A stretch of DNA of 64,000 nucleotides, from assembly GCA_009914755.4 (NCBI GenBank), contig CP086569.2:1664001-1728000 (forward strand), written 5' to 3'. Position numbers and translations under genes: made by a program. Positions 22,480-25,080 of the stretch are shown one piece after another. This stretch comes from the human T2T-CHM13v2.0 reference genome, Homo sapiens. Within the stretch, counting starts at the first letter, position 1. Every line of letters begins with the position of its first letter. The notes under the pieces are model-generated. The model saw only the letters and a program-made list of their open reading frames with translations. It was not told the DNA's origin and made no database searches.

Positions 22480-25080
22480 CAAGGAAGTAACAGATGCCAG
22501 AAAAGGCAAGGAAGGATTCCTCCCTGGATCCCTCAGAGGAAACGCAGGTCTGCAGACACCTTAATCTCAGACGTCTGGACTCCAGAACTGGGTGAATCTA
22601 CACTTCTGTTATTTAAGCCACTCTGTTTTCTGTATTTTGTTAGATCTGCTCCAGCAAACTAACATTTTATTCCTGTACCTGAACATTGAAAGTCAGCTAT
22701 GAATGAGTCGGTTCCTGGTACACAGCTTTTTTTTTCTTTTCTTTTTCTTTTTTTTTCTTTCTTTTTCTTTTTTTTTACACAGTCTCAGCGTCTCACTCTG
22801 TCACCCAGGCTGGAGTGCAGCAGCGCGATCTCGACTCTCTGCAACCTCCGCCTCCTGGGTTCAAGCGATTCTCCTGCCTCAACCTCCCAAGTAGCTGGGA
22901 TTACAGGTGCCCACCACCATGTCCAGCTAATTTTTTTTTTTGTATTTTTTTTAGTAGAGACAGGGTTTCACCATGTTGGCCAGGCTGGTCTCAAACTCTT
23001 GAACTCATGATCTGCCTGTCTCAGTCTCCCAAAGTGCTGAGATTAACAGGCATGAACCACTGCACCTGGACTGGAATGGACAGTGTTTTTCTTCCTTGCC
23101 AGAAAAGGCAAGGAAAGATTCCTCCCTGGAGCCCTCAGAGGAAACACAGGTCTACAGACACCTTAATCTCAGACGTCTGGACTCCAGAACTGGGTGAATC
23201 TACACTGCTGTTATTTAAACCATTCTGTTTTCTGTATTTTGTTAGATCTGCTCCAGCAAACTAACATTTTATTCCTGCACCTGAACATTGAAACTCAGCT
23301 ATGAATGAGTAGGTTCATACTGGACAGCATTTGTTGTTGTTGTTTTTTGAGACAGAGTCTCACTGTTGCCTAGGCTGGAGTCCGGTAGTGAGATCTTGGC
23401 TCACTGCAACCTCCACCTTCCGGGTTCAAACGATTCTCCTGCCTCAGCCTCCCAAGTAGCTGGGACTACAGGTGCATGGAACCACGCCCAGCTAATTTTT
23501 TGCATTTTTAGTAGAAACAGGGTTTCACCATGTTGGCCAGGATGGTCTCAATCTCTTGACCTTGTGATCCGACCGCCTCAGCCTCCCAAAGTGCTGGGAT
23601 GACAGGCGTGAGCCACCACACCCAGCCTGCAATGGACTGTGTTTTTCTAACGTCATCCTCATAGACTCAAAGGCATCTCTCGGCCTTCAGTCCACCTGGG
23701 TGGCTCATCACAACTTTACAACCCTGCTGTCCCATCTGGGTAGAATTCCACCTGCGTTCATTCCACCAGCACGATTTTATGACCCTGCTGTCCAAAAGTA
23801 TATGTACGTTAGCTTGATTTAGCTGTTCCACAATGTGTATATATATATTGCAAAATAACATAGCGTGCCATGGTAAATAAATGCCATTTAAATCTGTCAA
23901 TTTCAAAACGATAAAACTTTAAATATAATAGGGCAAATTTACCAACTGCAATAAACAAGCAAAACCTGAGGATTGGTTCACTGTAAACTGTAATAGGGTT
24001 CTTGACAGGGTAAAGGAACAGGCTGGGAGCTTCAGAGCAAGCAAAGTTCTTCAGACACTTTAAACTTTGATGTCTGGACTCCAGAACTGAGAGGGTCTAC
24101 ACTTCTGTTATTTCAGCCATTCAGTTTGCTGCATTTTTGTTAGATCTGTCCCAGCAAACTAACATGCATTGATCAAAAGTATTCAGGTATTTCATTCCTG
24201 CACCTGAAAATTGAAACTCAACCATGAAAGAGTCGGTTCCTGGTGGACAGCGTTTTCCTTTCTTTCTTTTTTTTTTTTTTTTTTTTGAGACAGAGTCTCA
24301 CTGTGTCGCCCAGGCTGGAGTGCAGTGGTGTGACCTCGGCTCACTGCAACCTCCATCTCCCGGGTTCAAGCGATTCTCCTGCCTCAGCCTCCCACATAGC
24401 TGGGACTACAGGCACCTGCCACCATGCCCTGCTAATTTTTTTGGTATTTTTTTTTTTAGTAGAGACGGGGTTGCGCTATGTTGGCCAGGCTGGTTTCGAT
24501 CTCTTGACCTCGTGATCCACCCATCTCAGCCTCCCAAAGTGCTGGGATTACAGGCGTGAGCCACCACGCCCGGCCTGCAATGGACTACGTTTTTCTAACG
24601 TCATCCTCATAGACTCAAAGGCATCTCTCGGCCTTCAGTCCACCTGGGTGGCTCATCGCAATTTTACAACCCTGCTGTCCAAAAGCGTATGTACAATAGT
24701 TTCATTTAGCTTTTCCACAATGTGTGTAGATGTTACAAAAGCACATAGTGTGCATGATAAATAAATGCAATTTAAATGTACTAATGTTAAAAGTAAAAAT
24801 GTTTAAAATAATAGGGCAAATTTATCATTCCAATTTTAGTATACGTGCTGCCAAAGTGAGCATGGCAAAGTTATCAACTGCAACAAACAAACCAAATGCA
24901 AATTGTAATAGTGTCCTTGAGACAGGAAAAACGGACCCTTGGCCCTTCACTGGGAATGCAGTTCTGTGGACACCTTAATCTCAGACGTCTAGAGTGCCCT
25001 AGAACAGTGAGTCTAAATTTGTGTTGTTTAAGCCACTCTGTGGTATTTTGTTAGATTTGCCCTAGCAAACGAATATGCAT
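22480..25080. repeat. Composite tandem repeat, ~3.5 copies of a ~950-bp unit = [Alu(-) + MaLR-type LTR]
   Basis: Alus at ~22727-23071, 23330-23627 and 24258-24576 (all minus) are each preceded by ...cattgaaa.tca.c.atgaa.gagt.ggttc and followed by ct..aatggac..tgtttttct... The LTR copies (23072-23320 partial; 23631-24254; 24586-25080) share gtctggactccagaactg...ttatttaa.cca.tc.gtttt.ctg.attttgttagatctg..ccagcaaactaacat. Confidence 0.8.

What the first reader, a model, noticed from the sequence alone, without database searches (positions are those of the whole stretch)
22480..25080. ~950-bp composite unit [Alu(-) + MaLR-type LTR] repeated ~3.5x in tandem, with a further dispersed LTR piece at 37910-38030
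An Alu sits at the same position relative to the LTR in three consecutive copies (Alus at ~22727, 23330 and 24258). The Alu insertion therefore predates a tandem amplification of the whole LTR+Alu module. One LTR copy is internally deleted (23072-23320). A ~120-bp piece of the LTR recurs 13 kb downstream (37910-38030), suggesting additional local duplication.
Basis: seen in the sequence. Interest (0 to 1): 0.5.

Follow-up and report, generated by a model that had tools for sequence, protein, structure and literature searches.

The report
Old tandem duplication carrying one Alu
A stretch of about 0.9 kb of primate junk DNA (the end of an old LTR, one Alu and a scrap of L1) was copied head to tail three to four times soon after the Alu landed; this is an ordinary kind of genome rearrangement with no sign of function.

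Summary
The core observation is real. Window 22495-25099 holds a head-to-tail array: units of 602, 906 and 915 bp plus a 182-bp partial fourth. The first three each carry a full-length minus-strand AluS at the same position.

All three Alus share one insertion site, one 13-nt target-site duplication core and the same 5 extra nucleotides at the Alu head. That points to one Alu insertion copied along with its surroundings.

Divergence between units (K2P 0.16-0.19) matches that between the Alu bodies (0.17-0.21). The amplification is therefore about as old as the Alu, very roughly 35-45 Myr.

Two short patches are far more alike (K2P 0.04-0.05), which suggests later gene conversion.

- Only the last ~170 bp of an MLT1-like LTR is repeated.
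- No LTR copy is internally deleted. Unit A instead lacks ~350 bp downstream of its Alu.
- The piece at 37909-38030 matches the L1-3'-end-like part of the unit, not the LTR. It shares no flank homology, so it is most likely an independent L1 fragment.

This is an ordinary tandem duplication of a transposon mosaic. Low interest.

The parts
22400..22494 (+). Part of the MLT1-like LTR of copy A that lies upstream of the repeated unit and is not repeated.
   Evidence: Aligns to the in-window 471-bp LTR reference (rc 54255-54725). It has no significant similarity to the tails that precede units B, C and D.
22495..23096 (+). Unit A (602 bp). LTR 3' part 22495-22664, flank1 22665-22726, Alu(-) with long interrupted T-tail 22727-23071, TGGAA 23072-23076, right TSD 23077-23090, then a short tail remnant. 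It lacks ~350 bp present in units B and C.
23097..24002 (+). Unit B (906 bp). LTR 3' part 23097-23266, flank1 23267-23329, Alu(-) 23330-23627, TGCAA 23628-23632, right TSD 23633-23646, flank2 to ~23800 (with a 61-nt internal duplication), L1-3'-end-like ~23802-23930, tail to 24002.
24003..24917 (+). Unit C (915 bp). LTR 3' part 24003-24164, flank1 24165-24252 (25 nt longer than in A and B), Alu(-) 24253-24575, TGCAA 24576-24580, right TSD 24581-24594, flank2, L1-3'-end-like ~24697-24809, tail (with a ~46-nt insertion) to 24917.
24918..25099 (+). Partial unit D. LTR 3' part to terminus ~25075 plus ~25 nt homologous to the start of unit C's flank1. It is the most diverged copy.
25100..25440 (+). 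5'-truncated Alu(+) with an (AAAAT)n tail that marks the right end of the array. It is not part of the repeated unit.
   Evidence: There is no unit homology downstream of it.
22496..22690 (+). High-identity patch A, partner 23098-23292 in unit B. Putative gene-conversion tract.
   Evidence: 8/195 differences against 65/356 in the rest of the A-B alignment, Fisher p=7e-7. Max-chi2 permutation p<0.001. K2P 0.042.
23582..23720 (+). High-identity patch B, partner 24530-24668 in unit C. Putative gene-conversion tract spanning the Alu head and proximal flank2.
   Evidence: 7/139 against 107/617 differences, Fisher p=1e-4. K2P 0.053.
37909..38030 (+). It is judged not to be part of the array.
   Evidence: 63-76% identical to the unit over ~95-120 nt only. 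Flanks are unrelated, z about 0.

Best explanation
This is a small, old tandem segmental duplication of a mosaic of transposon remnants. It is not a functional element and not a mobile composite element.

Inferred history:
1. An MLT1-like MaLR LTR on the plus strand lay upstream of unique sequence and a 5'-truncated L1 3' end.
2. One full-length AluS inserted in minus orientation 62 nt downstream of the LTR terminus, by ordinary L1-mediated target-primed reverse transcription. It has the 2-bp deletion typical of the Sc/Sg/Y lineage. The insertion made a ~13-nt target-site duplication (TGGACAGCGTTTT) and left 5 extra nucleotides at the Alu head.
3. Soon afterwards a ~0.9-kb segment was amplified head to tail into units A, B and C. 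The segment runs from inside the LTR (window 22495) through the Alu to the tail behind the L1 fragment. The likely mechanism is an initial non-homologous or microhomology-mediated duplication followed by unequal crossing-over. The more diverged partial unit D may be older.
4. Later changes:
   - a ~350-bp deletion in unit A at a TTCT microhomology;
   - small indels;
   - two gene-conversion patches (A with B, and B with C);
   - an Alu(+) at the right edge.

Shown: steps 2 and 3, in the sense that the Alu is shared by descent. Inferred: the order of events, the mechanism of amplification and the conversion reading.
For: - Array and unit boundaries.
- Alu identity and strand.
- Single insertion: same site, same TSD core in all three units, and the same TG(C/G)AA filler. 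Left flanks resemble each other, and right flanks resemble each other, more than each unit's own left and right flanks do.
- Shared 2-bp deletion plus G74A is found together in only 2 of 52 other Alus.
- Timing: K2P of non-Alu sequence outside the patches is 0.164 and 0.186. Alu bodies give 0.17-0.21. The Alu bodies show no excess similarity over background Alus, which fits amplification soon after insertion.
- Conversion patches.
- LTR part: each copy ends at the LTR terminus and aligns to LTR positions ~295-461 of a 471-bp in-window copy.
- Flank1 and flank2 occur nowhere else in the window.
- Tandem repeats derived from transposons are common in the human genome: 23% of minisatellites and satellites (PMC3389668).
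Against: - The Alu bodies alone give no significant signal of common descent. At non-CpG sites the other two rank 4th to 40th among 54 window Alus. The shared-derived-site test gives p=0.14-0.19.
- Independent reuse of exactly the same site by Alu insertions is documented elsewhere (NF1, PMC3219598).
- No orthologous locus could be obtained, so ages are rough and the empty site was not seen.
- Unit D is truncated, so it is unknown whether it ever carried the Alu.
Confidence: 0.88

Rival explanations
1. The units were duplicated first. Three separate Alus then inserted independently into the same L1-endonuclease hot spot (GTTTTT/CT) of each unit.
For: The Alu bodies are no more similar to each other than to unrelated Alus of the window. 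Exact reuse of integration sites by independent insertions is documented (PMC3219598). The window is extremely Alu-dense, with 72 Alu-like loci in 64 kb.
Against: It would need three hits at the same nucleotide, in the same orientation and with the same TSD length. All three would also need the same 5-nt TG(C/G)AA between Alu head and TSD. All three would need the same uncommon variant pair, seen in 2 of 52 others. Unit divergence equals Alu divergence, so there is no time gap that would require this model.
Confidence: 0.05
2. The ~0.9-kb module is a composite mobile element of the SVA kind. It spreads as a unit, and 37910-38030 is a dispersed fragment of it.
For: A piece of the unit recurs 13 kb away. 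There it also sits next to an MLT1-like LTR that stops near the LTR position where the unit's LTR part begins.
Against: The homology at 37.9 kb is confined to ~95-120 nt of an L1-3'-end-like repeat at 63-76%. Both flanks are unrelated, z about 0. Units abut head to tail, with no poly(A) or TSD at unit boundaries. Flank1 and flank2 are found nowhere else in the window. No hits were found in the other collections, but those hold hardly any primate DNA.
Confidence: 0.02
3. The two high-identity patches reflect purifying selection on a duplicated functional element, such as an enhancer or an exon, rather than gene conversion.
For: B and C differ at 4 of 96 positions in proximal flank2, against ~17% elsewhere.
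Against: Each patch runs across the boundary between repeat-derived and unique sequence: LTR plus flank1 in one, Alu head plus flank2 in the other. The patches are pair-specific. The A-B patch starts exactly where homology starts. No meaningful ORFs were found and no RNA family hits other than Alu-derived ones.
Confidence: 0.05

Closest known systems
TE-derived tandem repeats and small tandem segmental duplications in primate genomes (Ahmed and Liang 2012, PMC3389668)
   Same: Head-to-tail copies whose unit consists of transposon sequence. Copy number is low. Origin is by duplication followed by unequal exchange.
   Different: The unit here is long (0.6-0.9 kb) and is a mosaic of three transposon classes plus unique DNA. 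Copies are old, 76-87% identical outside the conversion patches. A catalogue requiring at least 95% unit identity, like that study's, would not list it.
SVA composite retrotransposon
   Same: It combines Alu-derived sequence in antisense orientation with LTR-derived sequence and is associated with tandem repetition.
   Different: SVA is a mobile unit with a hexamer repeat, a VNTR, SINE-R, poly(A) and its own TSDs. Here a complete Alu with its own TSD sits inside a locally duplicated genomic segment. The unit has no terminal poly(A) or TSD, and no dispersed copies were seen.
Alu-mediated unequal homologous recombination and gene conversion between paralogous repeats
   Same: The patchy identity pattern between neighbouring units, and Alus lying within the exchanged segments.
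   Different: The unit junction lies in the LTR and the tail, not within an Alu. Alu-Alu recombination therefore did not create the first duplication. It may have helped later expansion.

Membership tests
Alu (dimeric 7SL-derived primate SINE) | Two 7SL-related monomers, ~280-300 nt in total | tested here: met
   Each of the three elements gives two minus-strand Metazoa_SRP matches below the gathering score, 37-57 bits.
Alu (dimeric 7SL-derived primate SINE) | 3' A-rich tail and flanking target-site duplication | tested here: met
   T-rich tails on the plus strand start at 22727, 23330 and 24253. A 13-nt direct repeat TGGAC..(C/T)(G/A)TTTT lies on both sides of each element.
Alu subfamily AluS (Sc/Sg-like) | Diagnostic positions against curated subfamily consensus sequences | tested here: inconclusive
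   The best score is to AluSx. B and C are nearly tied with AluY. All three have the 2-bp deletion at 65-66.
MaLR (MLT1-type) LTR | Homology to the LTR consensus up to its 3' terminus (...CA) | tested here: met
   All four copies align to positions ~295-461 of a 471-bp LTR copy elsewhere in the window and end at ...CTAACA or ...CGAATA.
MaLR (MLT1-type) LTR | Assignment to a named subfamily by a curated repeat library | not testable with these tools
   No Dfam, Repbase or RepeatMasker is available here.
Tandem duplication (local head-to-tail array) | Adjacent copies in the same orientation whose homology includes non-repeat flank sequence | tested here: met
   Flank1 and flank2 are unique to the array within the window and are shared by the units.
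SVA-like composite retrotransposon | The whole unit is bounded by its own TSD and terminal poly(A), and copies are dispersed | tested here: not met
   Units abut directly. The only distant match is an L1-like ~100-nt piece with unrelated flanks.
L1 3' end (for 37909-38030 and the unit's 23802-23930 and 24697-24809) | Homology to the L1 3' UTR terminus followed by an A-rich tail | tested here: inconclusive
A-rich sequence follows in each case. A curated library is needed.

The most novel reading that the evidence does not exclude
This array lies next to a 3.6-kb, 62-copy 58-bp minisatellite that grew out of a neighbouring LTR. Together they may mark a long-lived local hot spot of unequal exchange and gene conversion. 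The conversion patches are much younger (K2P 0.04-0.05) than the units (0.16-0.19). The 0.9-kb array could therefore still vary in copy number among living apes or humans.
Probability: 0.12. Interest if true: 0.25.

Novelty: already known. Interest (0 to 1): 0.1.

Why it matters
It matters little beyond annotation. It is a clean small example of how a single Alu insertion can appear as several "copies" through local duplication. That can inflate Alu counts and mislead insertion-age or presence/absence analyses. It also shows patchy gene conversion between neighbouring paralogous units. If the array or the adjacent minisatellite is copy-number variable, it might serve as a structural marker. 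Nothing here suggests a new mechanism or function.

Tried and rejected
- **Alu-body phylogenetic signal.** I compared shared derived non-CpG sites and similarity ranks among the 55 full-length Alus of the window. There was no significant clustering of the three Alus. The case for a single insertion therefore rests on the junctions, not on the Alu bodies.
- **Homology of unit D past the Alu(+) at 25100-25440.** None was found, p=0.14-0.35.
- **Extension of the unit further 5' into copy A's LTR (22400-22494).** None was found.
- **PRDM9 13-mer motif CCNCCNTNNCCNC as a cause of instability.** It is absent from the array and from the minisatellite.
- **Orthologous or related loci.** Exact-pattern scans of genome contigs and metagenome contigs, two each, gave 0 hits. 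Those collections hold essentially no primate DNA.
- **Literature search for sequence strings from the unit and the minisatellite.** 0 papers.
- **ORFs in 17-30 kb.** Only Alu-, minisatellite- or low-complexity-derived frames. I ran no further search on them.
- **A model linking 37.9 kb and the array.** The idea was one L1 insertion into one LTR, since the LTR there stops at position ~316 and the unit's LTR begins at ~295. I rejected it for lack of flank homology, and because copy A's LTR is uninterrupted at that point.

Full report
**Observation**

The window is primate-like and very Alu-rich, with 72 Alu-like loci in 64 kb. Gapped self-comparison shows strong head-to-tail homology inside 22495-25099:
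- 22495-23092 vs 23097-23648, E=2e-164;
- 23135-23732 vs 24032-24680, E=7e-177;
- weaker matches of the LTR part to 24936-25076.

A four-way alignment, read against the sequence itself, gives these units:

| Unit | Coordinates | Length |
|---|---|---|
| A | 22495-23096 | 602 bp |
| B | 23097-24002 | 906 bp |
| C | 24003-24917 | 915 bp |
| D (partial) | 24918-~25099 | 182 bp |

Unit D is followed by a 5'-truncated Alu(+) at 25100-25440. Beyond that Alu no unit homology is detectable.

**Anatomy of the unit**

Each unit begins with the last ~170 bp of an LTR. That LTR part aligns to positions ~295-461 of a 471-bp LTR copy elsewhere in the window (rc 54255-54725). It ends at the LTR terminus...CTAACA, at 22664, 23266, 24164 and ~25075. 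That is a lead, not a database result.

After the LTR part come, in order:
- 62-88 nt of unique flank;
- a full-length Alu on the minus strand;
- unique flank2;
- a ~120-nt A-tailed piece that I read as an L1 3' end (memory-based; inconclusive for unit B);
- a 65-110-nt tail.

Flank1 and flank2 occur nowhere else in the window.

Rfam gives two sub-threshold Metazoa_SRP matches on the minus strand for each Alu, as expected for the dimeric 7SL-derived element.

**One Alu insertion or three?**

The junctions favour one insertion:
- All three Alus lie at the same position and in the same orientation.
- Each is flanked by the same 13-nt direct repeat core, TGGACAGCGTTTT. Left copies start at 22716, 23321 and 24244. 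Right copies start at 23077, 23633 and 24581.
- Each has the same five extra nucleotides, TG(C/G)AA, between the Alu head and the right repeat.
- Left flanks resemble one another, and right flanks resemble one another, more than each unit's own left and right flanks do.
- All three share the 2-bp deletion at consensus positions 65-66 together with G74A. Only 2 of 52 other Alus in the window have that pair.

The Alu bodies by themselves do not cluster:
- At non-CpG sites the other two copies rank between 4th and 40th among 54 window Alus.
- Shared derived sites are not in excess, p=0.14-0.19.

This fits amplification soon after insertion. K2P distances between units are 0.164 and 0.186 in non-Alu sequence and 0.17-0.21 in the Alu bodies. 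The duplication is therefore about as old as the Alu. At 2.2e-9 per site per year, a rate taken from general knowledge, that is roughly 35-45 Myr.

Independent reuse of one site by Alus is documented (PMC3219598). I keep that rival at about 5%.

**Later changes**

- Unit A lacks ~350 bp (flank2, the L1 piece and most of the tail). The junction shows a TTCT microhomology.
- A and B lack 25 nt just after the LTR terminus that C and D have.
- B has a 61-nt duplication in flank2, and C has a ~46-nt insertion in the tail.

Identity along the alignment is strongly heterogeneous:

| Pair | Segment | Differences |
|---|---|---|
| A-B | 22496-22690 / 23098-23292 | 4% |
| A-B | rest of alignment | 18% (Fisher p=7e-7; max-chi2 permutation p<0.001) |
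| B-C | 23582-23720 / 24530-24668 | 5% |
| B-C | rest of alignment | 17% (p=1e-4) |

K2P in the patches is 0.04-0.05. Each patch crosses a boundary between repeat-derived and unique sequence. I read them as gene-conversion tracts, with selection as a low-probability alternative.

Unit D is more diverged (K2P 0.22-0.35 with wide errors) and may predate the Alu. Because it is truncated, this cannot be tested.

**The piece at 37909-38030**

It matches only the L1-like part of units B and C. Identity is 76% and 69% over ~87 nt, falling to 63-68% over ~115 nt. That is lower than B vs C over the same columns, at 78-82%.

Upstream lies an MLT1-like LTR 5' part (37627-37909, LTR positions 14-316). Downstream lies unrelated sequence and another Alu. 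Neither flank shows similarity to the unit, z about 0.

The simplest reading is an independent, heavily 5'-truncated L1 insertion of the same old family. It is neither an LTR piece nor evidence of further local duplication.

One oddity remains unexplained. The LTR there stops about where the unit's LTR part begins.

**Context**

- Copy A's LTR appears to be the 3' portion of an LTR whose 5' portion lies at 18331-18506 (LTR positions 1-173).
- That LTR is split by a minus-strand MaLR-type LTR. The inserted LTR has expanded a 58-bp segment into a 62-copy, 3.6-kb minisatellite at 18713-22330.
- No PRDM9-type motif occurs in either the array or the minisatellite.
- ORFs in the region derive from repeats.
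- No related locus could be retrieved from the available collections, which are prokaryotic, viral or metagenomic, or from the literature.

**Comparison and verdict**

Tandem repeats built from transposon sequence are common in the human genome (PMC3389668). This case is an older, longer-unit, mosaic example of that kind. It is not an SVA-like mobile composite, since the unit has no terminal poly(A) or TSD and no dispersed copies.

Two side claims are wrong. The feature is ordinary: novelty 'already known', interest 0.1.

Noticed in passing
window 18713-22330 (+): A large minisatellite lies immediately upstream of the array: 62.4 copies of a 58-bp unit, 82% matches (TRF). The unit is GGGACCAGATTTCAGCATGAGACCCAAACACCTCCACCCAGCCCCACCTCCAACACTG. 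By eye it is an amplified piece of the 5' region of a MaLR-type LTR lying on the minus strand (LTR body ~18526-18712, terminus ...CTATATCA at ~22362).
   Followed up: partly
window 18331-18506 and 22400-22664: These two stretches match positions 1-173 and ~190/251-461 of the same 471-bp LTR reference. They look like the two halves of one MLT1-like LTR, split by the nested minus-strand LTR that carries the minisatellite. A 15-nt Alu-head fragment (gccaccgcgcctggcc, ~22363-22378) sits at the junction.
   Followed up: partly
window 37627-37909 vs 22495 / 24003 / 24918: The MLT1-like LTR at 37.6-37.9 kb stops at LTR position ~316 and is followed directly by an L1-3'-end-like piece. In the array the same kind of L1 piece precedes the LTR from position ~295 on. 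The coincidence is unexplained, and no flank homology links the two places.
   Followed up: partly
window 24253-24575 (-) and 25100-25440 (+); also 25719-26208 (+): Closely spaced inverted Alu pairs. For example, arms 24260-24457 and 25194-25391 are 80% complementary with 736 nt between them. If transcribed, this would be a potential long double-stranded RNA (a typical A-to-I editing substrate) and a potentially unstable DNA configuration.
   Followed up: no
window 25719-26208 (+) and 908-1829 (+): Alu-derived tandem arrays. One has period 218 with 1.9 copies at 25740-26159 (TRF). The other is a run of four overlapping partial Alu matches at 908-1829, suggesting a partial-Alu tandem repeat.
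   Followed up: no
window 54260-54900 (-): A full MLT1-like LTR is preceded by a ~180-bp duplicate of its own middle part. Compare 54900-54725 with 54560-54390, read on the minus strand. This is another small local duplication involving the same LTR family.
   Followed up: no
window 25490-25715 (-): By eye, the 3' portion of an MST/THE1-like MaLR LTR on the minus strand (tgtactagtccattttcatactgctataaagaaacacctgagactgggtaattta...). It lies just right of the array and is interrupted by Alus at 25719.
   Followed up: no
window 29220-29870: A long purine/pyrimidine-rich low-complexity tract of the (GAAR)n type. It gives 140-196-aa K/E/R-rich or S/F/L-rich pseudo-ORFs on both strands.
   Followed up: no
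window 22878-22929, 23443-23494, 24383-24434 (-) and others: Sub-threshold Rfam hits to mir-1268 and mir-3135 inside every Alu, at 31-55 bits against gathering scores of 80-83. They reflect the Alu origin of those miRNA families and are not genes here.
   Followed up: yes
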